Source of the DNA: an uncultured Gemmatimonadales bacterium
Lineage (GTDB): Bacteria > Gemmatimonadota > Gemmatimonadetes > Gemmatimonadales > GWC2-71-9
DNA length: 64,000 nucleotides
Direction: 5' to 3'
Assembly (NCBI GenBank): GCA_963695555.1
Contig: CAVOGR010000007.1
Location: 767,080 to 831,079, forward strand
The position numbers and the translations under genes were made by a program. Below the pieces are notes generated by a model. The model did not search any database. It had not been told where the DNA came from and saw only the letters and a program-made list of their open reading frames with translations. Each line of letters starts with the position of its first letter. Within the stretch, counting starts at the first letter, position 1. Shown piece after piece: positions 4,201 to 15,854 of this stretch.

Positions 4201-4325
4201 CGCGGCAGCTCGACCGTCGTCTTGGTGGCAAGCGGTAGCCGCGTGAACGCTACCGCTCCCGCGAGAATAATGGCGACCGCAACGGCCCAGATCACCGCCG
4301 GCCGTCGGACAGCCCACCCGATCAC
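1278..4325 (-). CDS. RND efflux permease (AcrB/MdtC-like HAE family), 1015 aa
   Basis: Long ORF with N-terminal TM helix, large periplasmic loops and 12-TM RND architecture. Its start overlaps the stop of the upstream RND gene by 4 nt. Confidence 0.9.
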   Translation of the reverse strand: MIGWAVRRPAVIWAVAVAIILAGAVAFTRLPLATKTTVELPRLQITIGWPGSAAELVEMYLTAPVEAATQAVRGVKKTSSESREGFASLEVELEPDANVQMARLGILERLELLRPEFPPGTTPASVTNFVPEELDEVPLLEYTLSGPYTPGALERIARERILPRVSAIPGVAVGEPSGGADLGVSVSYNPVQLRQLDISPAELLRVLGQSRVVRSLGEDQAGATERRVVLRDQPGALDDLGRLPVRGAGGLVYQLSDITSIRQEEDARGSFYRINGRPAVSMRISRLPGADAIKTAAGVRRLMNELEPALPEGLRLSVATDESVDLAKQLRDLGRRGAIAFVLVALVLAVTLRNAKSVLLVLGSAAVAIFGTALGLYLLGIPANLLTLAGLGMGVGILVQNGLVVVERLRRAPDTTEGRTEVGVRILPALLGATMTTAVVLFPFLYLQGNARAAFMPFAAAFALALGCSVVSAVIMIPALSAGHGASKAHWPRMSRFYRRVVIRLLRWRWVTLGLAVGALGLVTWGFITKVPRTSWGDWFGQRTTLSVFLSFPRGSDPESLDRGMREFETLVVGVPGVEQVVTAGGGTRRGFGGGASMQVLFEKDAGLTALPRQLEEALTQRAVFIGGARVAVRGQGPGFSSGFGGGGSVSFRIKILGYSFSGVERLAYDLKARLERIRRVRDVDVNAGSFWFREKAFTVTLEPDRDALARHGITGAELAAAVAREVRGPAGSQRIEIDGEELPVTLKTAGAVERTLDELRSAVVPNAVSAPVRIGDLARVGERETLSNISREDQQYVRILSYDFRGPSKLARRTHDAFMASIGVPAGYQVDDEVFAWEEDESGKGLWLVFGVGVTLVILVVAMVFDSVWAAGVVFLSLPLALGGVGAAFWIAKAAFTREAAVGVILVVGLAVNQAILLIDAALEKRRRRLAQTGRAGLTKQEVVSACRDRAGMIVLVTLTTLASLLPLAIGTESDSLFGSIALATTGGVAAGTLAALVVLPALLPGFRRVRPRP

Positions 4326-7300
4326 TCCGCCCCTCCGACACCGGCCGGCACCGTCGCGGTTTCTTCACCGGACCGACGCCGACTCGCGGCACCGCCTTTC
4401 CACCGCTCCACGACGACGTACCCGGCGGGCATTAGAAAGAAGGTCACCACCAGCGCGCTCGCGGCACCGCCGATCACGCTCGCCGCCAGCGGCTGATAGA
4501 GCGCGCCACCGCTGCCGAACCCGAACACCAGCGGGAACACACCCGCGATGGTAGTCAACGAGGTCATGACCACCGGTCGGAGCCGCTGACGCCCACCCAA
4601 CGCAATGGCCTCTTCCAACGGGTGCCCCGCTTGGCGGAACCGCTCGATGGCCGCGAGCTTCACCACCGCATCGTTGTCTGCGATGCCGATCATGACGATC
4701 AAGCCGATGAGCGACACGGCATTGAGGCTTTGTCCGGTGAGCCACAGGGCGATGATGCCGCCGCCTGCGGCAAGCGGAACGGTGAGCATGACGACGAGCG
4801 GTGTCGTGAAGGACGCAAACTCACCGGCTAGCACCAGGAACACCAAGGCCACCGAGAGCACCGCCACCAAGCCGAATTCCGAAATGGTCCGGCGTTGTTC
4901 GATGTCGGCGCCGGTGAGTTCCCACGTGACACCGGGCGGTGCGCCGGCCGCCGTGAGGCGCTTGGCGACCTCCGCCGCGGCGCGAGCCGTGCCGCCGCGC
5001 TCGACCCCGGCTTCGACGATCGACACCGGCCGCTGGTTGACCCGCACCACCTCGATCGGAGCCCGCGTCTCCTTTACCGAAACGAGTTGCCCCACCGGAA
5101 TGCCGCCCACCTGTGTTGTGAGCGCCGTGGCCAGATCCTCGTTGGCCGCCCCAGCAAGCCGCACGCGAATCGGCGTCCGCCGGTCGGTTTCCCTGAGTTC
5201 CGTGGCCTCGACACCGCCGAGTCCACCTGCCAACGCATCCGCCACGGTCTCGACGTCGAGGCCGTGCTCCGCAATGCGATCCCGGCGGAATTCGATCTCG
5301 ACCACCGCTTGGGTTCCGCCGTAGGCATCGCGCACATCGACGAGAGTGGGAATGCTGTCGAGCACGGCCTCTGCCACGGCGGCCCACGCCTCCGCTTCAT
5401 CCGGTCTGGCGGCTCCGACTTCGACCCGCACGATGCGCCCTTCACGACCGATGAGGCTGCCGAATTCCGATTGCCCTGCAAGGTCGATGGCCAACGACCC
5501 GTGCGCCAGGTCGGGAACGCGAGCGCGCAGGCGATCCGCGAAGCGCGCGGCGTCGGTCCCGGCTCGGACGGGAGCGAGGAGTTGGGCCGTGCTCGACGAG
5601 CCCGGCAGAGCCCCGGACAACACCTCCTCGTCGGTGGCCTTTCCAATTCGGCTGTAGATCCCGGTCGACCCCGACTCCAGCGCGGCCGTTTCGATGCGCG
5701 CCACTTGGCGGGCGGTTTCTTCGATGGTGGTCCCATCGGGCAGGGTCAGCTCCACCACCAGGACCCCTTCGTCCACCTGAGGCAGGATTTCCCTGGGCAA
5801 CTGGAGGGCCAACACCACCATGAGGAGAAGGCCGGCCCCACTCAACGCGAAGACCCGCCCAGGATGAGCCAGGCTCCAGCGCAGGCCGCGTTCGTACCAG
5901 TCGCCAAACCGCCGACCGAAGGCGTCGAGCGCTTCGCGCCGAGCGCTGGGGCCGGCGGCTTCGGCCCGCGTCCGGGAGGGTGCCTGCCGTGTCCCGCGGC
6001 GGCGGCCGGCGAGGATGACAGGCAGCAATGTCAGGGCGAGCACCAAGGACGCGCCGAGCGCGGTCACGACGCTCAAGGATAAATCCCGGAACAAAGCCGC
6101 CGCGAGTCCGCGCACAAACACGATGGGACCAAAGACCAGCAGCGTCGTGAGGGTGCCGGCGATCAGTGGACCAGCCACTTCTTCGGTTGCGCGCACGGTG
6201 GCGTCGGCCGGCGACAGGCCCGTGTGCTCGAGTCGGCCGGTAGCCTCGGACACAACGATCGCGTTGTCGACCAGGAGACCGACGCCCAAGGCGAGGCCGC
6301 CGAGCGACAAAATATTGATCGACACGTTGAGCAGCTGGAGCAGGACCAACGCAACCAACACTGACAGCGGAACCACCAGGCCGATGGCGAGCGAGCTCCG
6401 AAGGTGACCCAGGAAGACCAGGATAACGATCAACGCGAGGGCGCCGCCGAGAAAGATCTCGCGGCCCAGGTTGGCCAGCGCAGCGGTGACGAACTCCGCT
6501 TGCGCCGCGACCACCGACATGGTGATGGCAGGAAATTCTTCCGAGAGCGTCTCGATCGTCCGGTAGATGCCCTTGGTCACGGTTACCGTGTTGGCGCCCG
6601 CGTCCTTATACACCACCAGCCCGACGGCCGGCGACCCGTCGAGCCGCGTCATGGTTTCCGGGTCGCCGCTCGCGAGCGTGATCGTGGCCAGATCGCGCAA
6701 TCGGGTGCTTCCGCCGGGCGGACCGACCGGCGTCTGGCCCACCTCGTCAACATCTTGCAGCTCCGTCAGCGCCCGGACCGAGAACCGGAACTGACCGCGG
6801 CGGATGGTCCCGCCCTGGGCCGTCGCGTTGGCATTCCGAACGGCGGTGGCAATATCGGAAGGCGAGAGGCCCAGTGCGCGCATCCGATTCGGATCAACAT
6901 CGATCCGGATCTCGTCCTTGGGCGCGCCGACCACGGCCACGCTGGCCACACCCTGCAGCTGCTCGAGTCGCCGGGCGTGGACTTCTTCGCTGGTGCGCGC
7001 GATGGCGCGGAGGGTACCCGGTCCCGTAAGTCCGATGACGGCGATGGGCCGCTCACCAGGGTCGCTGGTCAGGAGCGTGGGGCGCGTGGCCCGCTCCGGC
7101 AGCTGCGACCTGACATTGTCGAGGCGCTCGCGCACGTTGAGCACGGTCGTCGCCATGTCCGTGCCCCACGCGAACCGTGCCGTCGTCGTCAACTGCCCGT
7201 TCCGGCTCACCGAACGCAGCTCGACCAGCCCCGGCGTTGCCGCGATGGCCTCTTCGATCGGCTCGGCGACGAACCGCGAGACCTCGGTGGCCGCCGCGCT

Positions 7301-7456
7301 TTCGTAATCGGTTCGAATGGTGAGAAGCGGGAGGGTCACGTCCGGCAAGAGCGACACGGGAAGCCGGCTGAGCGAAACGCTCCCGACCAAGACGAGGGCC
7401 AGCACGGCCGCGACCGTCGTGACAGGCCGCCGGACCGCCGCGTGTGTCAGCGACAT
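4322..7456 (-). CDS. RND efflux permease (AcrB/MdtB-like), 1044 aa
   Basis: Paralogous RND transporter directly upstream of the other RND gene. The tandem pair resembles the MdtB/MdtC arrangement. Confidence 0.9.
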   Translation of the reverse strand: MSLTHAAVRRPVTTVAAVLALVLVGSVSLSRLPVSLLPDVTLPLLTIRTDYESAAATEVSRFVAEPIEEAIAATPGLVELRSVSRNGQLTTTARFAWGTDMATTVLNVRERLDNVRSQLPERATRPTLLTSDPGERPIAVIGLTGPGTLRAIARTSEEVHARRLEQLQGVASVAVVGAPKDEIRIDVDPNRMRALGLSPSDIATAVRNANATAQGGTIRRGQFRFSVRALTELQDVDEVGQTPVGPPGGSTRLRDLATITLASGDPETMTRLDGSPAVGLVVYKDAGANTVTVTKGIYRTIETLSEEFPAITMSVVAAQAEFVTAALANLGREIFLGGALALIVILVFLGHLRSSLAIGLVVPLSVLVALVLLQLLNVSINILSLGGLALGVGLLVDNAIVVSEATGRLEHTGLSPADATVRATEEVAGPLIAGTLTTLLVFGPIVFVRGLAAALFRDLSLSVVTALGASLVLALTLLPVILAGRRRGTRQAPSRTRAEAAGPSARREALDAFGRRFGDWYERGLRWSLAHPGRVFALSGAGLLLMVVLALQLPREILPQVDEGVLVVELTLPDGTTIEETARQVARIETAALESGSTGIYSRIGKATDEEVLSGALPGSSSTAQLLAPVRAGTDAARFADRLRARVPDLAHGSLAIDLAGQSEFGSLIGREGRIVRVEVGAARPDEAEAWAAVAEAVLDSIPTLVDVRDAYGGTQAVVEIEFRRDRIAEHGLDVETVADALAGGLGGVEATELRETDRRTPIRVRLAGAANEDLATALTTQVGGIPVGQLVSVKETRAPIEVVRVNQRPVSIVEAGVERGGTARAAAEVAKRLTAAGAPPGVTWELTGADIEQRRTISEFGLVAVLSVALVFLVLAGEFASFTTPLVVMLTVPLAAGGGIIALWLTGQSLNAVSLIGLIVMIGIADNDAVVKLAAIERFRQAGHPLEEAIALGGRQRLRPVVMTSLTTIAGVFPLVFGFGSGGALYQPLAASVIGGAASALVVTFFLMPAGYVVVERWKGGAASRRRSGEETATVPAGVGGAE

Positions 7457-7494
7457 GGCAAACCAGATCTACGGCCGGCCGGCACGGCTCCCGC

Positions 7495-8658
7495 TCATGG
7501 CGTGGTGGGCCGCTCGGCGACCGTCTCGAGCCGGACCGGCGCATCGTGGGTAAGGGTGAGATGACCCTCGATGAGCACGGTGTCGCCAACCGCAACCGGG
7601 ATCAGCCCCGACACCGAGTCGGGTTCCACCGCGGTGTCGACGCCGTTGGTACGGCCCGGGGTGATGTAGACCCACTGGGCGCGCCCGTCCTTCACCACGA
7701 AGACCAACGGGCGGCCGTCCCGCTCGATCACCGCACGGGCCGGCACCAGAATCCGGTCGGCCAGCCGGGTGGCCTCCAAACGCACGTCGGCGTACATGCC
7801 CGGCCGCAGGGTTCCGTCTCCCCGGATCTGGACCAGTGCACGGCCGGTGCGGGTGACGCTGTCGACGACCGGCAGGACGGTCGCGATGCGTCCGACGACC
7901 GGGCGATCCGGTGTGGCCGCGGTGGTGATCACGGCCTGGCCGCCCGGCTTGATCAGCGGAAGATCGTGCTCGAGCACCGACGCCTCGAGCCGGAGGTTCG
8001 TCATGTCCACCACGACGGCGACTTCCTGGCTTACACTGAGCCGCTCACCCACGCTGACCTGCACACGATCCACCACGCCGGCAAACGGGGCGCGGATGGT
8101 AGCCCGTTCACGGTCGAGCTTGGCTTGCTCGTATCGGGCCCGCGCGGCTTTGAGGCCGCTGCGGGTTTCCGCGTTCGCGCGCCGCTCGGGCGTCGGTGCC
8201 TGCCCCGATACGATCGAATCCGGCAGCAGGTTGTCGACGTAGCGGAGCTGCGCCTCGTCGAGTGCGGCCTCGGACTCTTCGAGGGCCAGGTCGAAGGGCC
8301 GCGGATCCAGCTGGACCAGGGCTTGCCCGGCCGCGACACGGCGGCCCGGCCGCACCAGCACTTGCTGGACCGTGCCGGTCGCTTCGGCGCGCAAGGTGGC
8401 TGAGGCCTCCGAGCGCACTTGCCCGGTGGTGGTCACCGACAGGAGCAGGTCGCCTTTCCGGACAGTCTGACCGACCACCGGCAGCGACAGGGTGCTCGAC
8501 GCTTCGGCGCCCTCATTGTCGTTGTCTCCCTCCGCCGCCTTGGCCTTGCATCCTGCCGCAAGCGCCGTCATCGCCATGATCAGCAGGAGGCCGGAGTAGC
8601 TCCTCAGGTTCGCCACGTGCATAGAGTTCTCCAGGCCAGGCGCGTCCACTTCTTTCAT
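7495..8658 (-). CDS. RND periplasmic adaptor / membrane fusion protein (HlyD family) lipoprotein
   Basis: Signal peptide with lipobox (LAAGC) followed by an adaptor-like beta/coiled-coil region. The ATG overlaps the TGA of the upstream outer-membrane-factor gene (ATGA), indicating translational coupling. Confidence 0.85.
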   Translation of the reverse strand: MKEVDAPGLENSMHVANLRSYSGLLLIMAMTALAAGCKAKAAEGDNDNEGAEASSTLSLPVVGQTVRKGDLLLSVTTTGQVRSEASATLRAEATGTVQQVLVRPGRRVAAGQALVQLDPRPFDLALEESEAALDEAQLRYVDNLLPDSIVSGQAPTPERRANAETRSGLKAARARYEQAKLDRERATIRAPFAGVVDRVQVSVGERLSVSQEVAVVVDMTNLRLEASVLEHDLPLIKPGGQAVITTAATPDRPVVGRIATVLPVVDSVTRTGRALVQIRGDGTLRPGMYADVRLEATRLADRILVPARAVIERDGRPLVFVVKDGRAQWVYITPGRTNGVDTAVEPDSVSGLIPVAVGDTVLIEGHLTLTHDAPVRLETVAERPTTP

Positions 8659-9962
8659 GAGAGCGGCCGTCCGATAATGGCTTCGATTTGCGCTTTGGCG
8701 CGCAGGAAGTCGACGCCCGCGCTTACCGCCGCTTCCTCAGCGCGTGTCAGCGATTCTTGTGACGTCAGCACTTCGACGTACGTGATCGAGCCCAAGCGGT
8801 AGCGTTCGAGCTGAACCCGAAGATCCGCCTGTGCCGCTTCGAGACTCAGCTTGGTCACGTCGATCCGGACCCGCGCCGTGGTCAGCGCTGCGAGCTGGGC
8901 CGTGAGGCTGGCCTCGACCTGGCGGCGATCGTCGGCCAGCGTGGCCGCCACGTTATCGAATAGTACCGAGCTTTGATCGAGCTGCCGCTCGCGATTGAAT
9001 CGATCGAACAGAGTCCAGCTGAGGCCCACGTTGATGTTCGAGGTTCGCTGAAGGTCGTAGTCGTCCAACTGGCTGCCGGAAAGCTGCGTATTGGCGCTCA
9101 AGCTCAAGGAAGGCCAATACCCCGACTTGGCGGCGGTGACTTGGGCCCGCGCCGACCGCATGTTCGCATCAGACGCCAGGATCCGGGGCGATCGCTCGAT
9201 GGCTTCCTGCAGCAACACATCAGGGTCCAGGTCCATGTCGGTGGTATACAGCGACGGGTCGTCCACCGCCGAGATGCGCCCCTGTTCGCCTATCAGACGT
9301 GCCAGATTGGCCTCTGCCGTAGCCAGTTGACGCTCGGCTTCGAGCAGCTGCACACGGGCCTCGCCGAGCGTCACCACCGCACGGAGCGAGTCCGACACCG
9401 TCGCGGCCCCGGTGCTGAGTTTGGCCACCGCGATCTTGAATTGCTCTTCGGCTCGCGTGATGCCTGCCTCCCGAGCCCGGACCAACTGCTGCCCCGCGAG
9501 CGCATTGAAGAACTCGAGGCTGGTGGCCAGCGCCACCTGCGCTTCTTGATCGGCGAGCGAGGCCTCGCTCGCCTCGCGATCCGCCTTGGCGGACCGAATG
9601 GTTGCCTCGCGGCGGAAACCATCGAATAGAATCAGGCTCGAATTGATGCCGAAGTTGACGCTCCTATTGGAGTTGAGGCCGGTGAGGAGCTCGCCCGTTT
9701 GGGGGTCGAGCCGCGATTGGGCCTGTGGGAAGAACGACTGGCCGGCGCCCGCGCTCCCGGACAACGACGGGAGGTAGGCGCTGTACGCCGACCGGACATC
9801 AGAGCCGGCTACCGCGAGCGCACCGCGAGCCTGAACCACGGCCGGCTGTACCCGCCGGGCCATGGCAATGGCCTCGGCCAAGGTCACGGCCCGCTGTTGG
9901 GCCCCAAGCGGCGCGACCAGGAGAAGCCAGCACAGCCCTGCCGCGAAATGGATTGGTTTCAC
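8655..9962 (-). CDS. Outer membrane efflux protein (TolC-like OMF)
   Basis: TolC-like coiled-coil/beta-barrel repeats. Likely GTG start near 9962 giving MKPIHFAAGLCWLLLVAPLGAQQ signal peptide with GGAGG 9 nt upstream. The track ORF extends to 10085 but its extra 41 aa lack a signal peptide. Confidence 0.8.
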   Translation of the reverse strand: MKPIHFAAGLCWLLLVAPLGAQQRAVTLAEAIAMARRVQPAVVQARGALAVAGSDVRSAYSAYLPSLSGSAGAGQSFFPQAQSRLDPQTGELLTGLNSNRSVNFGINSSLILFDGFRREATIRSAKADREASEASLADQEAQVALATSLEFFNALAGQQLVRAREAGITRAEEQFKIAVAKLSTGAATVSDSLRAVVTLGEARVQLLEAERQLATAEANLARLIGEQGRISAVDDPSLYTTDMDLDPDVLLQEAIERSPRILASDANMRSARAQVTAAKSGYWPSLSLSANTQLSGSQLDDYDLQRTSNINVGLSWTLFDRFNRERQLDQSSVLFDNVAATLADDRRQVEASLTAQLAALTTARVRIDVTKLSLEAAQADLRVQLERYRLGSITYVEVLTSQESLTRAEEAAVSAGVDFLRAKAQIEAIIGRPLS

Positions 9963-10171
9963 GACGCTCGTCACCTCCGGTCTCCATATCCCATTACCAC
10001 AACGATGCATTGGGACGCCGTGGCGTCGCTCCTGAGCGCAAACGACCTCACCTGTGGCCGATAGACGCCTGCGGCGGCCCAGCAATCGCGTTCAAGTTAC
10101 TGTGATATGAGTGAACCGGATACCGGTCCGAGCGGACGCCGGCAGGGAAACGACCGGGGGTTCAGCACCTG

Positions 10172-10957
10172 CTAAAGCAGCGGCGATTCGCTCGGCTCGA
10201 TCTCGAAGAAGGTCTGTTTCAGTCGATCCCAGGCCGCCGCATCAACGTGGGTGTGCAGCTCACTCACCAGCCTACCCCCGTCGGCCAGCACCGCGATCTC
10301 CTCCTCACCGAGCAAGGTACTGATCAGCCGGTCCACCTCACGCTGGAACCAGGCCTGCGCCCGATCCCCGCGTAACAGGCGCCGGCGCTCGCGACGGAGT
10401 CCCTTCCCCTCGAGCTTCACTACCCACCCCTCACCGTAGGGGTCCTCGTTCAACAACGTCGGCCGCCGGCCGAGGGACGCATTGTGACCCACCACCGTTC
10501 CCGACACCGGGGCACGCAGGTCGACGCTGCGTTCACCTTGACGCAACCGGAAGAGCGACTGACCACGGCTGACCTTGGTGCCCTTGGCGGGCAGAATTAC
10601 CGTGTCGACCGGGCCCAAGGTGGCCTGCACCAAATCGTCCGCGCCCACTACCGCCTCGCCATGTCTGACCCGGGTCCACGTATGGCCGGAAGCGATGGCG
10701 ACATTGGCGCCGAGTCGCAGTCCCTTATGGAACAGCATGGGTTCGAACTGCGCACCGAACCAGGTGCGGAAGGAGGGGCTCACGGCGTAGGACACAATTC
10801 CGCCTATTAACGCGACCCCGAAGACTGCGACCACCCCCGCCCGCACCATCAGCGCCGCAAGGCCCAACAGCGGCAATCCGACGACGAAGAGCGCCATCAC
10901 GACTATGACGGCTCCGATTGTGAGCGCCGTTCGATACCATCGGTTTTCGGTTCGCAT
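10172..10957 (-). CDS. Membrane-anchored glycine-cleavage H-protein-like (GcvH fold) protein lacking the lipoyl lysine
   Basis: Two N-terminal TM helices followed by a GcvH-like domain (SGHTWTRV ... NEDPYGEGWVVKLE). ATG near 10957 with GGAGG 8 nt upstream. The track start at 10984 is a TTG overlapping the predicted promoter. Confidence 0.7.
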   Translation of the reverse strand: MRTENRWYRTALTIGAVIVVMALFVVGLPLLGLAALMVRAGVVAVFGVALIGGIVSYAVSPSFRTWFGAQFEPMLFHKGLRLGANVAIASGHTWTRVRHGEAVVGADDLVQATLGPVDTVILPAKGTKVSRGQSLFRLRQGERSVDLRAPVSGTVVGHNASLGRRPTLLNEDPYGEGWVVKLEGKGLRRERRRLLRGDRAQAWFQREVDRLISTLLGEEEIAVLADGGRLVSELHTHVDAAAWDRLKQTFFEIEPSESPLL

Positions 10958-10999
10958 GGTGCAACCTCCGAGCCTGTGCTCCAATCCCCAGCTCTCTCA

Positions 11000-11016
11000 A
11001 TGCATGCCCCGCACCA
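11000..11016 (-). promoter_or_regulatory. Candidate sigma-54 (-24/-12) promoter for the membrane GcvH-like gene
   Basis: Minus-strand TGGTGCGGGGCATGCAT against consensus TGGCACG-N4-TTGCW. The GG and GC dinucleotides are at the correct 12-nt spacing, and the element sits about 45 nt upstream of the ATG. Confidence 0.45.
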
Positions 11017-11113
11017 CACCGGCCTGGCCTTGGGCGCGCGCTGGAAGTTCATAAATTGCAATAGTTTTCGCCGTTTCATCTGGAGCTGTGTAACCACCGG
11101 ACGTCATGAACCC

Positions 11114-11127
11114 TGACGAATTCGTCA
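11114..11127. promoter_or_regulatory. Perfect 14-bp palindrome TGACGAATTCGTCA, candidate enhancer-binding-protein upstream element (UAS/operator)
   Basis: AT-rich palindrome in a GC-rich genome about 100 bp upstream of the sigma-54 promoter candidate. It shares the 12-mer GAATTC(G/A)TCAAC with a second site at about 12084-12098. Confidence 0.45.
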
Positions 11128-11156
11128 ACATGACTGTTGAGAAGATCAACATGATG

Positions 11157-11906
11157 TCAGGTCGTCATTTCACGAAGGAGTTGCAGGTACCGGTCACCGC
11201 CGAGTAATTGGCGCATGTCGGTCAGGACTTGGCCACCGTCGGGCAGACATGAGCCGACCTCAGCCGTGTCGGCCAGGAGGTGGAGGGCCGCACGGCGTCG
11301 GAACCCGCGGAGGTCGAACTCCGCCTGTTTCCGAGCGTCCTCCGCACTCAGCAGCCCATTGGGAGACGTACCATCAACTGGGTCGAGTTCGGTGATCCAA
11401 CCTTCCCCATAGGGATCGGCGCGCACCGCCCGCGGGTCTCCGGCCAGCACTTCGTTCCATCGCATGACACAACAGCCGAATGGAGCGCCGATTGGCAGCG
11501 TGCCCTGAGCAAGTTCGATCTCGAAGAGGAGATCGCCACCGTTCAAGCGGCGCGGGATGCCTCCGCAGTGGACTGCCGCGCAGTCGCCGATGAGATCGGA
11601 GACAAAGCCGTCGAGGCCTATTCTCAGGGTTGCCCCGTCGGTCGGACTGGCCTGGATCCAGAGGTGGCCGGTAGAGTATCGCCGATCCTCTGGGAACTGA
11701 GCGGCGTGTCGACTGGGAAGGGCGGTCAGGTGGTCGGACCGGGGAGCGAGTGGCGCGTTGCCTCCACGGAGGGCGGCATCGAGCGCGCAGCCATCGCAAT
11801 CGAACTCGCGGTCACAGAGCCGGTAGGCCACCAACCCCGCGCTCATCCACACGCAGGGCAGAGCGCCTGCCGGAAGGATCCGGTGCTGCTCTCGGCTCAT
11901 CACCAT
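11157..11906 (-). CDS. GcvH-like protein (non-lipoylatable) with N-terminal Cys cluster
   Basis: YSTGHLWIQ ... LLFEIELAQGTLP ... ADPYGEGWITELDP aligns to the GcvH fold with Gln at the lipoyl-Lys position. N-terminus has C-x12-C-x5-C-x2-C (CDREFDCDGC). ATG near 11906 with GGGAGAG RBS. The track start 11999 is a TTG overlapping the promoter. Confidence 0.7.
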   Translation of the reverse strand: MVMSREQHRILPAGALPCVWMSAGLVAYRLCDREFDCDGCALDAALRGGNAPLAPRSDHLTALPSRHAAQFPEDRRYSTGHLWIQASPTDGATLRIGLDGFVSDLIGDCAAVHCGGIPRRLNGGDLLFEIELAQGTLPIGAPFGCCVMRWNEVLAGDPRAVRADPYGEGWITELDPVDGTSPNGLLSAEDARKQAEFDLRGFRRRAALHLLADTAEVGSCLPDGGQVLTDMRQLLGGDRYLQLLREMTT

Positions 11907-11995
11907 TGGCCGCTCTCCCTTGCCGAATCGCGGCCGGGAGGCGACCCGACGTCGTTGCGAAGAAGACTCGCCTCCCAACCTCACACCACCGAATA

Positions 11996-12010
11996 GCAAG
12001 TCGGGAGCCA
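11996..12010 (-). promoter_or_regulatory. Candidate sigma-54 (-24/-12) promoter for the Cys-cluster GcvH-like gene
   Basis: Minus-strand CTGGCTCCCGACTTGCT gives TGGC-N7-TTGCT, a good match to TGGCACG-N4-TTGCW. Predicted transcript start about 11985, leader about 80 nt. Confidence 0.5.
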
Positions 12011-12083
12011 GCAGACGGGGGGGCCGAGAAGGCCGCAGATTGGGCCTAACCCCAGAGGCGATGCGACCGCGGCTTCCCGTGTC

Positions 12084-12098
12084 GTTGAATTCATCAAC
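12084..12098. promoter_or_regulatory. Second copy of GAATTC(G/A)TCAAC upstream element (GTTGAATTCATCAAC) followed by TTCATTGAA near-palindrome
   Basis: AT-rich island about 90 bp upstream of the second sigma-54 promoter candidate, in the divergent region between the GcvH-like gene and the histidine kinase. Confidence 0.45.
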
Positions 12099-12179
12099 GG
12101 TTCATTGAAAATTCCTACATCGCTCGATACCGTTCAGATGCCTGCATATCCGCGTCCATGACGGTACGCGGGAGCACTC

Positions 12180-13886
12180 ATGACCCCGACGCTCAGGGCG
12201 CGTCGATCGCTCGGGATACGCCTTCTCCTTCCGCTGGCCCTCACGGTCGGCGTCGTCTTCGCCGTTCATTCGCTGGTCAACTATCGCTCCACGCGGGCGG
12301 ACCTCGTGGGGTTCCTCCGGTCGGCGGCGGACAACGACAGCGACCTCATTCGTCGCGCTACCCATGACGGCATGCTGCTCAACCGGCTCGATGATGTCCA
12401 AGAGCTCGTCACTCGCTTGGCCGAGGGTCCCGGTGTGGCGGCAATTCGGGTCTACGACAAACACGGTGTGATCGTGCTTAGCGCCCATCGCGAGGAGATC
12501 GGCCGCTACATCGCGCTCGATTCAGAGACCTGTGTGAGCTGTCACCAGCAAGAGCATACCTCGGACGTGGGCGAACTCGAGCGCAGCGGGCTGGCGCGTA
12601 TGCCTGAAGGGGTCGAAGTGCTCCGCCACTTGTCGGTGATCCCCAATGAGCCGGCCTGTGCGACAGCCGGCTGTCACGATCCCCCGGGCCAGAAGCGGAT
12701 CCTGGGGGTCCTCGACGTGGAGATGTCGATGCTGCCGGTCGAGTCCACTCTTCGGGCGGCCCAGCAACGCATCATCGCCACGACCTTGGCGCTGATTCTC
12801 ATCATCGGCGTCGTCTCGGTGGTGTTCTTCAATCAAGTGATCCACCGACCGGTGGCGGCGCTGCACGAGGGCACACGGCGCATTGCGGCGGGCGACTTGG
12901 AAACCCGGATTTCCGTACGCGGCCAACATGAGCTATCCGAGCTGGCCCACGCCTTCAACCGCATGTCGGAGGATCTGAGTACGGCGCGGCAGGAGCTCAA
13001 GGGATGGTCGCAGAAACTCGAAGCCAAGGTCCAGGAGAAGACCAGTGAGCTCCAACGGGCTCAGCGCCAGGTACTGCACATGGAGAAGATGGCGTCGCTC
13101 GGCAAGCTCTCGGCCACGGTCGCCCACGAGCTCAACAATCCCATCAGCGGGATGCTCAACTACAGCCGCTTGGTGGAGCGCGGCCTCGAGGAGCAGCCGC
13201 TCGATCCGGACGCGCGCGAGGAACTCGGACGGTACCTCCATTTTCTCCAGAAGGAGTGCAGCCGGTGCGGCAAGATCGTCACCAACCTGTTGCTCTTCGC
13301 GCGGCGGACAGGAGCCGACATGGAGCCGATCGATCTCAACGAGATCGTGGAGCGGAGCCTGATGTTGGTGCAACACCATCTCAAGGTCAGCAACATCGAG
13401 CTCAGCACCCGGCCCCTCACGGGCAATGCCATGGTCGTCGCCGACGGCGGGCAGCTCCAGCAGGCCTTGGTGGCCCTGATGGTCAACGCGGTCGAGGCCA
13501 TGGGCGGGGCGAGGAGCGGCGGCGGCGACGTCTTGAGCGTGCGGCTGGACGCCTCTGACGGTGAGGTCACACTCGAGATCGCCGATACCGGCCCCGGTAT
13601 TTCGTCGGAGGTCCTGCCCCACATCTTCGAGCCGTTCTTCTCAACCAAGGATCAGGAGAGCGGTGTCGGCCTGGGCCTCGCGGTAGTCTACGGCATCGTC
13701 CAGCGCCACGGTGGAACCATCGATGTGGATTCCGAGCCGGGCATGGGAACCAAATTCACCCTGCGGTTACCGCGCCAGCGGCCACCGGAGGCAAGCGGCT
13801 TCTCTGCCGCCAACCCGGAATTCGAACTGCACCCGGCCGGTGGCGCAACGCGGCCCGAAGGAGACGACCCCCATGAGCACGCATGA
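12180..13886 (+). CDS. Sensor histidine kinase with periplasmic domain carrying CxxCH and Cx4CH motifs
   Basis: TM1 (LLLPLALTVGVVFAV), periplasmic region of about 165 aa containing CVSCH and CATAGCH, TM2, HAMP, and HisKA H-box (ATVAHELNNPISG) plus HATPase_c motifs. Confidence 0.9.
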   Translation: MTPTLRARRSLGIRLLLPLALTVGVVFAVHSLVNYRSTRADLVGFLRSAADNDSDLIRRATHDGMLLNRLDDVQELVTRLAEGPGVAAIRVYDKHGVIVLSAHREEIGRYIALDSETCVSCHQQEHTSDVGELERSGLARMPEGVEVLRHLSVIPNEPACATAGCHDPPGQKRILGVLDVEMSMLPVESTLRAAQQRIIATTLALILIIGVVSVVFFNQVIHRPVAALHEGTRRIAAGDLETRISVRGQHELSELAHAFNRMSEDLSTARQELKGWSQKLEAKVQEKTSELQRAQRQVLHMEKMASLGKLSATVAHELNNPISGMLNYSRLVERGLEEQPLDPDAREELGRYLHFLQKECSRCGKIVTNLLLFARRTGADMEPIDLNEIVERSLMLVQHHLKVSNIELSTRPLTGNAMVVADGGQLQQALVALMVNAVEAMGGARSGGGDVLSVRLDASDGEVTLEIADTGPGISSEVLPHIFEPFFSTKDQESGVGLGLAVVYGIVQRHGGTIDVDSEPGMGTKFTLRLPRQRPPEASGFSAANPEFELHPAGGATRPEGDDPHEHA

Positions 13887-15240
13887 GGCCAACATCCTGG
13901 TGGTGGACGACGAATTCGCCGTCCGGGACTCGCTTTACAATTGGTTCCGCAAAGACGGTTACCATGTCCACGCGGCCGAGAATGCCACCGAGGCGCTGCG
14001 CGCCCTCCAAGACCAGGCGTTCGACGTCATTCTGCTCGACATCAAGATGCCCGGCATGGACGGGATGGAGCTCCAGTCACGGATCCATACGATCGATCCG
14101 GAGATCGCCGTCATCATGATCACCGCGTTCGGATCGGTCGAGACCGCCGTACAGGCCCTCAAACAAGGCGCCTTCGACTACGTCACGAAACCGATCGACC
14201 CCGACGAGTTGAGTCACTTGGTCCACCGAGCACTCGAGCAGCGGCGACTCCAAAAGGAGAACGTGCAGCTGCGGGAGACCATCGACGAGATCGGGGCCGC
14301 CGACACGATCGTGGGCGAGAGTCCTGCCATCCTCAAGGTGCTCGAGTTGATCCGCCACGTCGCCAAGACCGAAGCGACGGTCCTCATTCGAGGTGAGAGC
14401 GGTACGGGGAAGGAATTGATCGCCCGGGCCATCCACGCGAACAGCGCCCGGCGCTATTTCCCGATCGTGCCGGTCAACTGCGGCGCCGTGCCTAACGAGC
14501 TGCTCGAGAGCGAGTTGTTCGGGCACGAGAAGGGAGCCTTTACCGGGGCGCAGCATCGGCGCAAAGGCCGTATCGAAATGGCGGACGGCGGGACGCTGTT
14601 CCTGGACGAGGTCGGAGCCATCAACCCGAAGATGCAGGTCGATCTCCTCCGGACGCTGGAGACCAAGGAATTCACCCGGCTCGGCGGCTCGAAATCCATC
14701 AAGGTGGACTTCCGGATCATTTGCGCCACCAACGAAGACTTGGAGGTGGCGGTCGAGGAGGGGCGGTTCCGCGAGGACTTTTACTATCGCATCAACGTCT
14801 TCACTATCGAGGCTCCGCCGCTTCGGAGCCGGCCCTCCGACATACCCCTATTGGCCGAGCACATCGTGAAACGGCTCGCGAGGCAGATGGACAAGCGAAT
14901 CACCGAGATCCACCCCGACGCGATGCAGCTCCTGATGGACTATGCGTGGCCCGGGAATGTGCGGGAACTCATTAACGCAATCGAGCGCGCCATGGTCGTG
15001 GGGACCCCGCCGACCATCCAACCAGAGGATCTCCCGGTCTGGGGAAGGCGATCGGTGAATGCATTCTCCGGCGAATCGCTCGCTGACGTGGAGAAGGATC
15101 ACATCGCGTCCGTGCTCGAGCACACGGGATGGAACATCACGCGTGCCGCAGAAATTCTCCGGGTCGATCGCGTGACCGTCTACAACAAGATCAAGAAATA
15201 CGACCTCCGGCAGCCGGCGACCCGGGGCGGTAAGAAATGA
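13873..15240 (+). CDS. Sigma-54-dependent response regulator (NtrC family: REC + AAA+ with GAFTGA + HTH)
   Basis: MSTHEANILVVDDEFAVRD receiver domain, GESGTGKE Walker [17 protein letters not shown]-terminal HTH. The ATG overlaps the end of the kinase gene by 14 nt. The track ORF from 13711 is an upstream extension. Confidence 0.9.
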   Translation: MSTHEANILVVDDEFAVRDSLYNWFRKDGYHVHAAENATEALRALQDQAFDVILLDIKMPGMDGMELQSRIHTIDPEIAVIMITAFGSVETAVQALKQGAFDYVTKPIDPDELSHLVHRALEQRRLQKENVQLRETIDEIGAADTIVGESPAILKVLELIRHVAKTEATVLIRGESGTGKELIARAIHANSARRYFPIVPVNCGAVPNELLESELFGHEKGAFTGAQHRRKGRIEMADGGTLFLDEVGAINPKMQVDLLRTLETKEFTRLGGSKSIKVDFRIICATNEDLEVAVEEGRFREDFYYRINVFTIEAPPLRSRPSDIPLLAEHIVKRLARQMDKRITEIHPDAMQLLMDYAWPGNVRELINAIERAMVVGTPPTIQPEDLPVWGRRSVNAFSGESLADVEKDHIASVLEHTGWNITRAAEILRVDRVTVYNKIKKYDLRQPATRGGKK

Positions 15241-15314: not shown

Positions 15315-15854
15315 GTGCCGGTGCTCCACGTCGTCCCGTTCTATTGCGGCACGGCCACCGACTTGATCGATGGGTTGGAGGCGCGTCTGGCGCGGGTGTT
15401 CGGCGTCCGGGTGGAGCACCATCCGCCGTCGTTCGAGCCGGAAGTGGCCTACGATGCCTCACGGGGCCAATACAACTCGCGGATCCTGCTTGCCCAGCTG
15501 CTCCGTCAGGTACCCGCCGACGACTCACGGATCCTCGGCGTGACCGCGCTGGATCTGTTCATCCCGGTGCTGACCTATGTCTTCGGCGAGGCCCAGGTGA
15601 ACGGCAAGGCGGCCGTCGTCTCATCACATCGACTCGACAATGCCCTATACGGCTTGCCCGCGTCCCAGGAGCTCCTATTCGAGCGGCTCTGCAAAGAAGC
15701 GATCCACGAGTTGGGCCACACTTTCAACCTGGTGCATTGCCACAATAGCGAGTGCGTGATGACGAGCTCGATGCAGATCGACGGCGTCGACCTCAAGTCC
15801 GACCGGTTCTGCGGTCGTTGCAAAGCCGCGCTGCGGCACAACGGGGTGTGCTGA
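15315..15854 (+). CDS. Archaemetzincin-like zinc metallopeptidase (peptidase M54)
   Basis: HELGHTFNLVHCHNSECVMTSS ... CGRC gives HExxHxxGxxH plus a Cys4 zinc site typical of AmzA. Confidence 0.75.
   Translation: MPVLHVVPFYCGTATDLIDGLEARLARVFGVRVEHHPPSFEPEVAYDASRGQYNSRILLAQLLRQVPADDSRILGVTALDLFIPVLTYVFGEAQVNGKAAVVSSHRLDNALYGLPASQELLFERLCKEAIHELGHTFNLVHCHNSECVMTSSMQIDGVDLKSDRFCGRCKAALRHNGVC

What the first reader, a model, noticed from the sequence alone, without database searches (positions are those of the whole stretch)
10172..11906. Tandem GcvH-fold paralogs lacking the lipoyl-lysine: one membrane-anchored, one with an N-terminal Cys4 cluster
Both proteins carry the hallmark GcvH C-terminal motif (NEDPYGEGWVVKLE / ADPYGEGWITELDP) and the conserved early strand (HTWTRV / HLWIQ). 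At the position of the lipoylated Lys (E. coli ESVKA) the second paralog reads ELAQG, with Gln in place of Lys. The first paralog also has no Lys there. The first paralog is anchored by two TM helices, so its GcvH domain would be periplasmic or membrane-proximal. The second has C-x12-C-x5-C-x2-C (CVWMSAGLVAYRLCDREFDCDGC), resembling a metal- or redox-sensing knuckle. Non-lipoylatable H-protein domains used as protein-interaction modules are poorly characterised. Co-transcription with an efflux pump suggests a role in envelope stress or export rather than glycine cleavage.
Basis: partly seen in the sequence, partly recalled or inferred. Interest (0 to 1): 0.65.

Follow-up and report, generated by a model that had tools for sequence, protein, structure and literature searches.

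The report
Lysine-less GcvH-like pair under σ54 control
Two neighbouring genes encode proteins with the fold of the glycine-cleavage H protein that cannot carry lipoic acid; they belong to a widespread, undescribed gene module switched on by a heme-type redox sensor, and are usually partnered with a membrane quinone-linked electron-transfer unit rather than with the efflux pump next to them here.

Summary

The efflux/envelope reading is only weakly supported. In 80 species-level loci the Cys4-GcvH gene sits beside:
- a sensor kinase and a σ54 response regulator (69-70 of 80);
- an HmcB/HmcC-like (NrfCD-type) iron-sulfur plus quinone-interacting membrane pair (63-65 of 80);
- often an archaemetzincin (38 of 80);
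- an RND pump in only 4 of 80.

Sister Gemmatimonadales lost the pump by two separate deletions. Both kept B and the two-component genes; A stayed intact in one and was truncated in the other.

In the window, each GcvH-like gene has its own -24/-12 element and a GTTGA-N5-TCAAC palindrome. That palindrome occurs nowhere else in the 64 kb. The kinase's periplasmic domain carries invariant CxxCH and Cx4CH motifs.

Most likely these are cytoplasm-facing, non-catalytic partner proteins of a redox-responsive σ54 regulon. Their biochemical role is unknown, and no description was found in the searched literature.

The parts
11157..11906 (-). Gene B: soluble Cys4-GcvH-like protein, 249 aa (stop codon included)
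   Evidence: ORF list. Pfam GCV_H E 1e-10. 105 homologues, of which 77 have E below 1e-20. Model pLDDT is above 90 over residues 65-185. Foldseek match to 1onl, TM 0.92.
11787..11855 (-). Cys4 module of B (residues 18-40): C-x12-C-x5-C-x2-C within PCVWMSAGLVAYRLCDREFDCDGC
   Evidence: C18, W20, M21, S22, A23, G24, Y28, L30, C31, D32, C37, C40 and D43 are invariant in alignment A2. The 48-aa module finds 735 representative proteins at E<=1e-3, some carrying 2-4 tandem copies. No Pfam family matches at E<=10.
11352..11714 (-). GcvH-fold core of B (about residues 65-185), with Gln at the lipoyl-lysine position (ELAQG)
11160..11351 (-). C-terminal extension of B: long helix, LPDGG loop, terminal helices
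   Evidence: Alignments A1 and A2. The model has helix 188-216, a low-confidence loop 216-228, and helices 231-248. The extension is homologous to that of A.
10172..10957 (-). Gene A: membrane-anchored GcvH-like protein, 261 aa (stop codon included)
10784..10924 (-). Hydrophobic hairpin of A (residues 12-58) with invariant Arg39 at the turn
   Evidence: Alignment A3. Hydropathy and flank charges.
10388..10738 (-). GcvH-fold core of A (about residues 74-190). Glu sits at the lipoyl-lysine position and is followed by an invariant Arg (RQGER).
10175..10387 (-). C-terminal extension of A (W-F-x-x-E-V-D-R ... ADGG ... W)
   Evidence: Invariant W203, F204, E207, D209 and W243 in A3. Aligned to the extension of B by hhalign.
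11995..12010 (-). σ54-type -24/-12 element upstream of B: TGGCTCCCGACTTGCT
   Evidence: Pattern search. A match of >=9 of 11 consensus positions lies within 350 nt upstream of the B homologue in 44 of 80 loci, against 3.8% of random 360-nt windows.
12084..12098 (.). Palindrome GTTGAATTCATCAAC, a candidate binding site (UAS) for the σ54 activator, about 80 nt upstream of the -24 element of B
   Evidence: One of only two matches to GTTGA-N5-TCAAC (<=1 mismatch) in the 64 kb window. The same palindrome lies at the same relative position in 32 related loci. The k-mer is enriched in upstream regions.
11001..11016 (-). Weaker σ54-type -24/-12 element upstream of A: TGGTGCGGGGCATGCA
   Evidence: It matches 8 of 11 consensus positions with correct GG/GC spacing.
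11136..11150 (.). Palindrome GTTGAGAAGATCAAC, a second candidate UAS. It lies 7 nt after the stop codon of B and about 125 nt upstream of the -24 element of A.
12180..13886 (+). Sensor histidine kinase (TM, periplasmic domain, TM, HAMP, HisKA, HATPase). The periplasmic domain carries CVSCH (residues 118-122) and CATAGCH (residues 160-166).
   Evidence: Pfam. Both motifs are invariant in 71 orthologues. 52-57% identical to the kinases of L001 and L002.
13873..15240 (+). NtrC-type σ54-dependent response regulator (REC, AAA+, HTH_8)
   Evidence: Pfam Sigma54_activat E 1e-71. 65-79% identical to the regulators next to Cys4-GcvH genes in other phyla.
15315..15854 (+). Archaemetzincin-family (Peptidase_M54) gene, last gene of the kinase-regulator operon
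   Evidence: NCBIfam archmetzin 160 bits, above the cut-off of 145. Present next to the regulator in 38 of 80 loci.
1278..9965 (-). TolC-like outer membrane protein (8655-9965), periplasmic adaptor (7495-8658) and two RND permeases (4322-7456 and 1278-4325). These are lineage-specific neighbours and probably not part of the conserved module.
   Evidence: Pfam and NCBIfam. Synteny. Deletion remnants in L006-L009 and L013.

Best explanation
A and B are non-lipoylatable GcvH-fold proteins. B is soluble and has an N-terminal Cys4 metal or Fe-S site. A is tethered to the inner membrane by a helical hairpin. Both domains most likely face the cytoplasm.

They are the conserved output genes of a redox-responsive σ54 regulon. 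A kinase whose periplasmic domain carries two invariant heme-c motifs phosphorylates an NtrC-type activator. The activator binds GTTGA-N5-TCAAC palindromes and fires a -24/-12 promoter in front of each gene.

In most lineages the same operon also encodes an HmcB/HmcC-like (NrfCD-type) periplasmic iron-sulfur protein plus a quinone-interacting membrane subunit. It often encodes further membrane-anchored GcvH-like paralogues and sometimes a cytochrome c3-like protein.

The GcvH-fold proteins therefore most likely act as non-catalytic, cytoplasm-side partner or adaptor subunits of such quinone-linked membrane complexes. The fold would serve as a protein-binding module and the Cys4 site as a structural or redox-sensitive element.

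In this Gemmatimonadales lineage the HmcBC-like cargo has been replaced by an RND efflux operon, which is a secondary and dispensable neighbour.

What is shown: the fold, the missing lysine, the conserved synteny, the promoter and palindrome motifs, and the conserved heme motifs. What is inferred: the topology, the regulation by this particular two-component system, physical association with the membrane complex, and the nature of the metal site.
For: - Fold and missing lysine.
- The family-wide lysine column is variable and non-lysine.
- Synteny in 80 species loci: RR 70, HK 69, Fer4 65, NrfD 63, M54 38, RND 4. Independent look-ups give the same picture.
- The partners are HmcB-like (321 bits) and HmcC-like (372 bits), with HybA/HybB as the next best matches.
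- In L099 a cytochrome c3-like gene, Fer4_11, NrfD and Cys4-GcvH lie in one operon, and the GcvH start overlaps the NrfD stop by 4 nt.
- A -24/-12 element is found upstream in 44 of 80 loci, against 3.8% of background windows.
- The palindrome occurs only twice in the 64 kb window, both times in front of these genes, and recurs at the same place in 32 loci.
- CxxCH and Cx4CH are invariant in 71 kinase orthologues.
- The pump was lost twice while B and the two-component genes were kept; A stayed intact in one of the two deletions.
- Distant relatives with the same C-terminal extension sit next to other redox enzymes: Pyr_redox_2 in L097 and HdrA-like/FlpD in L095. L097 again has a σ54 regulator and Peptidase_M54.
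Against: - No HmcBC-like gene lies within this 64 kb window. In this genome the proposed partner is therefore absent locally, and its presence elsewhere is untested.
- Several lineages keep only the pair plus the two-component system (L021, L022, L045, L048, L068, L009). That fits a self-contained regulatory or effector role as well as it fits a subunit role.
- NrfD-type subunits carry no cofactor that could pass electrons to a cytoplasmic partner, so any electron-transfer role for the Cys4 site has no obvious route.
- The Cys4 region and the DGG loop are modelled with low confidence.
- No experiment or publication on the family was found.
Confidence: 0.5

Rival explanations
1. Feedback or accessory proteins of the two-component system itself, by analogy with zraP-zraSR, cpxP-cpxAR and pspA-pspF. 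The σ54-induced GcvH-like proteins would act back on the kinase or the activator. A would act at the membrane next to the kinase's TM/HAMP region. B would act as a cytoplasmic redox or metal sensor through its Cys4 site. Both could also serve as stress effectors.
For: - The minimal unit conserved everywhere is the kinase, the regulator and the divergently or tandemly encoded GcvH-like gene(s).
- Some loci have nothing else conserved (L021, L022, L045, L048, L068, L009).
- The layout (a σ54 promoter in front of an accessory gene, divergent from the HK-RR operon) is that of zraP/zraSR, as I recall it from established knowledge.
- The regulator's second-best NCBIfam match is ZraR, and the kinase's second-best match is ZraS.
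Against: - Up to four GcvH-like paralogues occur per cluster.
- Gene spacing with NrfD is tight or overlapping.
- 63-65 of 80 loci carry HmcBC-like genes, which points to a structural partnership rather than pure feedback.
- No known feedback protein has this fold.
Confidence: 0.2
2. One reading: the pair are accessory or interaction modules of the downstream TolC-MFP-RND2 efflux system. They would be co-transcribed with it and act in envelope stress or export.
For: - The genes are on the same strand, 205 nt apart, with no predicted intrinsic terminator or σ70-like promoter in the gap.
- The arrangement is conserved in close relatives down to 64% identity of B (window, L010, L011, L015-L017).
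- RND genes also lie near the module in L001, L040 and L044.
Against: - Only 4 of 80 species loci have an RND gene nearby.
- Two independent deletions removed the pump. Both kept B and the two-component genes, and A stayed intact in one of them.
- The palindromes and -24/-12 elements precede B and A, and none lies in the gap before the pump.
- The GcvH domains are probably cytoplasmic, whereas adaptor lipoyl domains act in the periplasm.
- The window's B and A are most similar to versions followed by Fer4-NrfD-GcvH (47-48% identity), which suggests cargo replacement.
Confidence: 0.12
3. Carrier proteins for a different prosthetic group. The GcvH fold would still work as a swinging-arm or ligand-holding carrier, modified at another residue or binding a small molecule non-covalently in the lipoamide cavity. 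The Cys4 modules would be Fe-S clusters wiring it to redox enzymes.
For: - The GcvH core motifs outside the hairpin are well kept: H-x-W, G-x-D-x-x-A/Q, A-P-V-x-G and P-Y-G-E-G-W.
- A-type proteins have an invariant Arg next to the former lysine position.
- Cys4 modules occur in 2-4 tandem copies, as in polyferredoxins.
- Relatives sit next to HdrA-like and Pyr_redox_2 enzymes.
Against: - No conserved nucleophile (Lys, Cys or Ser) sits at the hairpin tip.
- No ligase or transferase gene is conserved in the clusters.
- Nothing here tests the metal content.
Confidence: 0.1

Closest known systems
Glycine cleavage system H protein (GcvH, PF01597)
   Same: - Same conserved core motifs: H-x-W, the A-P-V-S-G strand and D-P-Y-G-E-G-W.
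   Different: - No lipoyl lysine (Glu in A, Gln in B).
- Twice the size, with a ~60-aa C-terminal extension containing a DGG motif.
- An N-terminal membrane hairpin or a Cys4 module.
- Scores far below the NCBIfam gcvH cut-offs (46-69 bits against 116-117).
- No gcvT or gcvP among the identified neighbours.
- σ54-controlled.
LbpA, the lipoate-binding GcvH-like proteins of the sulfur-oxidising Hdr-like system (PMC6067878)
   Same: GcvH-like proteins recruited away from glycine cleavage into a redox or energy-metabolism gene cluster. Distant relatives of A and B also sit next to HdrA-like genes (L095).
   Different: LbpA is described as lipoate-binding and comes with dedicated lipoate-protein ligases (abstract of PMC6067878). 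A and B have no lysine at the site, no ligase gene nearby, different partners (HmcBC-like or RND) and extra domains.
GcvH-L of Streptococcus pyogenes / Staphylococcus aureus (PDB 5a35; PMC5049849, PMC12440151)
   Different: GcvH-L is a lipoic acid carrier (PMC12440151). A and B cannot be lipoylated at the canonical site and have different domain additions and gene context.
Hmc / Nhc / Tmc-type and HybOABC-type membrane redox complexes with NrfC-like plus NrfD-like subunits (review PMC8076601)
   Same: The usual operon partners of the family score best against HmcB and HmcC, then HybA and HybB. One variant (L099) also has a cytochrome c3-like gene, giving an Hmc/Nhc-like layout.
   Different: - Known complexes have no GcvH-fold subunit; the NrfD review contains no occurrence of 'glycine' or 'lipoyl'.
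- The scores are below the HmcB/HmcC equivalog cut-offs.
- In the window itself these genes are absent.
σ54 two-component regulons with a divergently transcribed accessory gene: zraP-zraSR, and Geobacter bccR-cbcBA (bioRxiv 10.1101/2021.04.15.440034)
   Same: - A divergent layout of accessory genes and a σ54 regulator operon.
- An NtrC-type activator.
- In Geobacter, a σ54 promoter upstream of hypothetical genes that precede a quinone-oxidoreductase-like module induced at low redox potential.
   Different: - Different output proteins.
- The kinase here has a periplasmic domain with two heme-c motifs.
- An archaemetzincin gene is part of the operon.
- No sequence relationship to ZraP was tested.
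- Whether GSU0597 and GSU3489 are related could not be checked.

Membership tests
GcvH (glycine cleavage H protein) | GcvH/barrel-sandwich hybrid fold matching PF01597 | tested here: met
   [not shown]
GcvH (glycine cleavage H protein) | Lipoyl-lysine in the E-[ST]-V-K-[AS] hairpin | tested here: not met
   Glu in A and Gln in B. The column is variable and non-lysine in 163 of 171 family domains.
GcvH (glycine cleavage H protein) | Score above the curated equivalog cut-off (TIGR00527 at 115.85 bits; NF002270 at 117 bits) | tested here: not met
   A scores 65 and 69 bits; B scores 47 and 56 bits.
GcvH (glycine cleavage H protein) | Works with the T, P and L proteins (gcvT/gcvP context) | tested here: inconclusive
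   All genes within about 9 kb on either side were identified, and none is gcvT or gcvP. The rest of the genome is unknown.
LbpA (sHdr lipoate-binding protein) | Conserved lipoylatable lysine and dedicated lipoate-protein ligase genes | tested here: not met
   No lysine at the site. No ligase was seen among the neighbours in the window or in the related loci.
LbpA (sHdr lipoate-binding protein) | Location in an hdrC1B1A-hyp-hdrC2B2 cluster | tested here: not met
   The neighbours are a TCS, archaemetzincin and an RND pump. In other species they are HmcBC-like genes.
σ54-dependent regulon of the adjacent NtrC-type two-component system | -24/-12 promoter element with GG-N10-GC spacing upstream of the gene | tested here: met
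   TGGCTCCCGACTTGCT at 11995-12010, and a weaker TGGTGCGGGGCATGCA at 11001-11016. Conserved upstream of homologues in 44 of 80 loci, against 3.8% of background windows.
σ54-dependent regulon of the adjacent NtrC-type two-component system | Upstream activator-binding inverted repeat conserved with the regulator | tested here: met
   GTTGA-N5-TCAAC occurs only at 12084-12098 and 11136-11150 in the 64 kb window. It is found at the equivalent places in 32 loci. Binding itself was not tested.
σ54-dependent regulon of the adjacent NtrC-type two-component system | Transcription depends on RpoN and on the regulator | not testable with these tools
   Needs RNA-seq or reporter assays in rpoN and regulator mutants.
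Subunit of an Hmc/Hyb-like NrfCD-type membrane complex | Encoded in one operon with NrfC-like and NrfD-like genes | tested here: not met
   The window has no Fer4_11 or NrfD homologue in 64 kb. The feature is met for the family at large (63-65 of 80 loci; overlapping genes in L099).
Subunit of an Hmc/Hyb-like NrfCD-type membrane complex | Physical association with the NrfD-like subunit | not testable with these tools
   No multimer prediction or biochemistry was available.
RND efflux accessory protein | Conserved co-occurrence with RND pump genes | tested here: not met
   RND genes lie nearby in 4 of 80 loci. The pump was deleted twice in sister lineages; B and the TCS genes were retained in both, and A was retained intact in one.

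The most novel reading that the evidence does not exclude
The Cys4-GcvH and membrane-anchored GcvH-like proteins define an undescribed class of cytoplasm-side subunits. These would couple cofactor-less NrfD-type quinone modules, and in this lineage perhaps a proton-driven RND pump, to the cytoplasm. The Cys4 modules, which occur in one to four copies and match no Pfam family, would be Fe-S or redox-switch sites. A dedicated di-heme sensor kinase, σ54 activator and archaemetzincin circuit would control the whole. That would amount to a new, phylum-spanning respiratory or redox-homeostasis system built on a repurposed lipoyl-carrier fold.
Probability: 0.25. Interest if true: 0.8.

Novelty: new variant of a known kind. 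Interest (0 to 1): 0.62.

Why it matters
GcvH is textbook as a lipoyl-arm carrier. Here the fold persists without the lysine and has gained a conserved C-terminal extension plus a membrane anchor or Cys4 module.

The family is large. The Cys4 module alone finds 735 protein clusters at 50% identity, in at least 192 species of Gemmatimonadota, Planctomycetota, Acidobacteriota, Myxococcota and 'Deltaproteobacteria', Eisenbacteria and others. The 80 loci examined are all from metagenome-assembled genomes.

The family is locked into a conserved gene module of a di-heme-motif sensor kinase, a σ54 activator and an archaemetzincin, usually with an HmcBC-like quinone module. These genes are currently annotated as 'glycine cleavage system protein H', which is misleading for metabolic reconstruction of these abundant soil and sediment phyla.

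The module offers four things:
- a testable entry into what two-subunit NrfCD-type units without a catalytic partner do;
- a bacterial context for the functionally obscure archaemetzincins;
- a defined σ54 promoter and enhancer pair for experiments;
- a correction to the efflux-pump reading for this locus.

Tried and rejected
- **Glycine-cleavage role:** rejected. There is no lysine, the scores are sub-threshold, and neither gcvT nor gcvP is nearby.
- **Periplasmic GcvH domain:** judged unlikely from the flank charges. No topology predictor was available.
- **HmcBC-like partner in the window:** searched for by tblastn and not found.
- **σ54 element or palindrome in front of the pump:** none found. 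The 205-nt gap has only a short conserved palindrome, ACCGGTATCCGGT.
- **σ70 promoters and intrinsic terminators in 9800-12300:** none found. This is uninformative for a 65% GC genome of an under-studied phylum.
- **Named domain for the Cys4 module and the kinase sensor:** no Pfam hit for the Cys4 module. The sensor gave only sub-threshold hits to sCache_3_2, Paired_CXXCH_1 and Tll0287-like.
- **Literature searches:** I searched for GcvH-like proteins with NrfD, HmcBC, σ54 or archaemetzincin, and for GcvH-related proteins. These returned only GcvH-L, LbpA and general NrfD or σ54 papers.
- **Geobacter cbcBA/BccR:** the paper gives an analogous σ54 layout, but its two hypothetical proteins could not be compared.
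- **Technical failures:** the first search for related loci attempt, with the broad alignment A1, failed for lack of a conserved stretch. The afdb50 fold library was unavailable.
- **Structure models:** they gave no confident fold for the Cys4 region or the DGG loop, so the nature of the metal site stays open.
Full report
**1. What is in the sequence**

On the minus strand, 10172-11999 holds two ORFs.
- ORF A most likely starts at the ATG at 10957 (MRTENRWY..., 261 aa).
- ORF B most likely starts at the ATG at 11906 (MVMSREQ..., 249 aa).
- Both starts are where the homologues start.

Both match Pfam GCV_H (E 2.3e-20 and 1e-10). They score far below the NCBIfam gcvH equivalog cut-offs.

Models built from family alignments are confident over the GcvH cores (pLDDT above 90).
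- B superposes on Thermus H protein with TM 0.92.

In phmmer alignments to solved GcvH proteins, the lipoyl lysine of E-S-V-K-A aligns with Glu in A (RQGERSV) and Gln in B (ELAQGTL). An alignment anchored on E. coli GcvH agrees. A tblastn search with E. coli GcvH finds only these two loci in the window.

A has a 47-residue hydrophobic stretch (residues 12-58) split by an invariant Arg. B has C-x12-C-x5-C-x2-C with all four Cys and nine other positions invariant.

A and B are true paralogues. They share 23% identity, with hhalign probability 99.5% over 169 columns. The shared region includes a ~60-residue C-terminal extension (long helix, DGG loop, terminal helices) that canonical GcvH lacks.

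**2. The family**

B has 105 homologues in the 5.8-billion-protein collection. Most are 240-260 aa, with Pfam GCV_H as the only annotated domain. A has 53 homologues.

A pattern scan of one genome per species found 192 species that encode a Cys4-GcvH relative. The 80 kept are all metagenome-assembled genomes of Gemmatimonadota, Planctomycetota, Acidobacteriota, Myxococcota/'Deltaproteobacteria', Eisenbacteria, Wallbacteria and others. The best matches, at 92% identity, are Gemmatimonadales, so the window is from that order.

The 48-aa Cys4 module alone finds 735 representative proteins at E<=1e-3. Some carry two to four tandem modules before the GcvH domain. The module matches no Pfam family.

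Over 171 GcvH-like domains from the related loci and the window, the lysine column is G/D/E/A/N/L/S/Q. The 8 lysines lie in an R-G-x-R context where D/E/N dominate. Lipoylation is therefore not a conserved property of the family.

**3. Gene context**

The window reads, left to right:
- on the minus strand: RND2, RND1, MFP, TolC-like OMP, A, B;
- then on the plus strand, divergently: a HAMP histidine kinase, an NtrC-type σ54 response regulator and an archaemetzincin.

I mapped the window's proteins and the partners seen in the first look-ups onto the 80 species loci by tblastn.

| Neighbour of the Cys4-GcvH gene | Loci (of 80) |
|---|---|
| σ54 regulator | 70 |
| Sensor kinase | 69 |
| Fer4_11 iron-sulfur protein | 65 |
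| NrfD-family membrane protein | 63 |
| Peptidase_M54 | 38 |
| RND permease | 4 |

- The regulators are 57-79% identical to the window's even across phyla.
- 63 of the 80 loci hold two to four GcvH-like genes.
- The Fer4_11 and NrfD partners score best against HmcB (321 bits) and HmcC (372 bits), then HybA/HybB. All are below the equivalog cut-offs. Both Fer4_11 queries (L001, L004) begin with twin-arginine motifs.
- In L099 the operon is cytochrome c3-like, Fer4_11, NrfD, Cys4-GcvH (start overlapping the NrfD stop), kinase, regulator, M54. P0077's contig has GcvH, GcvH, Fer4, NrfD, kinase, regulator and M54 in one direction.
- More distant relatives with the same C-terminal signature lie beside other redox enzymes. 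One is a PAS kinase, σ54 regulator, M54, three GcvH-like genes and Pyr_redox_2 (L097). Another is HdrA-like/FlpD genes (L095).

The window has no Fer4_11 or NrfD homologue anywhere in its 64 kb.

**4. The efflux pump is a lineage-specific neighbour**

The B-A-OMP-MFP-RND-RND order is found only in the window's close relatives (L010, L011, L015, L016, L017).

In Gemmatimonadales at about 70% identity (L006-L009), gene A is followed by just the last 62-69 codons of RND2 (84-85% identical) and then gyrA. In L013 and L014 a different deletion is present. In L013, which extends far enough to show the junction, A at about residue 228 is joined to RND2 at about residue 798; L014 ends within A.

The ancestral pump operon was therefore deleted twice. 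B, the kinase, the regulator and the archaemetzincin stayed intact both times, and A stayed intact in one of the two.

The window's B and A are most similar (46-48%) to versions followed by Fer4-NrfD-GcvH (L018, L019). This suggests that the pump replaced that cargo.

**5. Regulation**

A strong σ54 -24/-12 element lies 89 nt upstream of B (TGGCTCCCGACTTGCT, 11995-12010). A weaker one lies upstream of A (TGGTGCGGGGCATGCA, 11001-11016). Comparable elements (>=9 of 11 consensus positions) lie upstream of the B homologue in 44 of 80 loci, against 3.8% of random windows.

K-mer enrichment in the regions upstream of these elements led to the palindrome GTTGA-N5-TCAAC. Allowing one mismatch, it occurs exactly twice in the 64 kb window:
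- at 12084-12098, upstream of B's promoter;
- at 11136-11150, just after B's stop codon and upstream of A's promoter.

It recurs at the equivalent positions in 32 loci. This is the expected signature of the binding site of the conserved adjacent activator. Binding itself was not tested.

No such element precedes the pump genes. The 205-nt A-OMP gap is conserved among close relatives and has no predicted terminator, so read-through into the pump remains possible.

The kinase's periplasmic domain carries C118-x2-C-H and C160-x4-C-H, invariant in 71 orthologues. These are c-type heme attachment motifs, the second in the Cx4CH form that I recall from cytochromes c3. The input is therefore probably periplasmic redox state or a heme ligand. 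Heme-c sensor domains in bacterial signalling proteins have a recent precedent in a different domain family (PMC12889525). The domain here gives only sub-threshold Pfam hits.

**6. Topology**

Across 21 A-type sequences:
- the N-terminal flank averages 2.2 K+R against 1.1 D+E;
- the flank after the hydrophobic stretch averages 3.6 K+R against 2.1 D+E;
- the turn holds one Arg.

By the positive-inside rule this is an N-in/C-in hairpin with a cytoplasmic GcvH domain. B has no signal peptide or membrane segment. The third-type paralogues (L001 and L004 examples) have one N-terminal membrane segment; in L001 it is followed by RRR. I therefore place all the GcvH-like domains at the cytoplasmic face. 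This is an inference, not a measurement.

**7. Most likely mechanism**

- *Shown:* the fold, the loss of the lipoylation site, the conserved extension, the conserved gene module, the promoter and enhancer motifs, and the conserved heme motifs.
- *Inferred:* a periplasmic heme-based kinase activates the NtrC-type regulator. The regulator binds the palindromes and drives σ54 transcription of B and A, and in other species of the HmcBC-like module and further paralogues.

The GcvH-like proteins act at the cytoplasmic face of the membrane as non-catalytic partner or adaptor proteins of quinone-linked membrane complexes. The Cys4 site would serve as a structural or redox-sensitive metal centre. I give this composite about 0.5.

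The main rival (0.2) is that they are feedback or effector proteins of the two-component system itself, in the manner of zraP-zraSR. That fits the loci that hold only the pair plus the regulators. The pump-accessory reading gets about 0.12. A cryptic carrier function with another cofactor gets about 0.1.

**8. Comparison with known systems and novelty**

- The fold is GcvH, but two defining features of membership fail: the lysine and the equivalog score.
- The nearest functional precedents for GcvH paralogues outside glycine cleavage are LbpA of the sHdr system (PMC6067878) and GcvH-L (PMC5049849, PMC12440151; PDB 5a35). Both are lipoate carriers.
- The partner genes resemble Hmc, Nhc and Hyb modules. 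The NrfD-family review contains no occurrence of 'glycine' or 'lipoyl' (PMC8076601).
- The regulatory layout resembles zraP-zraSR and Geobacter bccR-cbcBA (10.1101/2021.04.15.440034).
- Eight literature searches found no description of this family or module.

I rate it a new variant of a known kind: a repurposed, lysine-less GcvH fold with new appended modules inside an undescribed, phylum-spanning σ54 redox module. Interest is 0.62. The anatomy and conservation are solid and would surprise a lipoate or GcvH specialist, but the biochemical function is still open.

Noticed in passing
window 12531-12545 and 12657-12677 (kinase residues 118-122 and 160-166): The periplasmic domain of the histidine kinase has CVSCH and CATAGCH. 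Both the CxxCH and the Cx4CH motif are invariant in 71 orthologues across phyla, which suggests a di-heme c sensor domain. Pfam gives only sub-threshold hits (sCache_3_2, Paired_CXXCH_1, Tll0287-like).
   Followed up: partly
window 15315-15854 (+): An archaemetzincin-family (Peptidase_M54) gene is the last gene of the kinase-regulator operon. It keeps that position in 38 of 80 related loci and in distant relatives (L097, L099). This is a conserved bacterial context for a protease family of obscure function. The motif reads HELGHTFNLVHC, with Asn where I recall Gly in the canonical HExxHxxGxxH.
   Followed up: partly
L006 11741-11944; L009 3017-3229; L013 8831-9483: There are remnants of the 3' end of the second RND permease gene directly after gene A (L006-L009), or fused to a truncated gene A (L013). 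These are two independent deletions of the OMP-MFP-RND-RND operon in related Gemmatimonadales MAGs. Pairs of these contigs come from the same MAG accessions (L008/L013 and L007/L014). They may be two genomic copies or mixed strains in one bin.
   Followed up: partly
proteins P0159, P0160, P0189, P0193, P0228, P0236: The Cys4 module occurs as 2-4 tandem copies in front of GcvH-like domains. It alternates between a C[IV]WM.AG..-type and a KCRYML.G-type variant, in the manner of polyferredoxins. No Pfam family covers it.
   Followed up: partly
window about 10112-10124 (-), in the A-to-OMP gap: A short perfect palindrome, ACCGGTATCCGGT, is conserved in L010, L015 and L016 between gene A and the TolC-like gene. 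It could be a weak hairpin or a regulator-binding site for the pump genes.
   Followed up: no
window 1278-7456 (-): Two consecutive full-length RND permease genes overlap by 4 nt (4322-4325). Among named NCBIfam families, both score best against MdtC and MdtB/MuxB-type models. This suggests a heteromeric MdtBC-like pump.
   Followed up: no
window 43026-44150 and 50182-51009: There is a second σ54-type response regulator paralogue (41-43% identical to the cluster regulators) and a second histidine kinase paralogue elsewhere in the window (tblastn).
   Followed up: no
window 15858-17048 (-) and 17563-18642 (+): Two ORFs of 396 and 359 aa flank the module. The 396-aa counterpart in L010 (330-1520) has no Pfam hit on record. 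Similar unannotated genes sit at the same place in L013 and L014.
   Followed up: no
L002 14928-20372; also L051, L066, L067: In Acidobacteriota the full GcvH-like/HmcBC-like cluster lies directly next to a formate dehydrogenase-N-type operon (Molybdopterin, Fer4, Ni_hydr_CYTB, FdhE) on the opposite strand.
   Followed up: no
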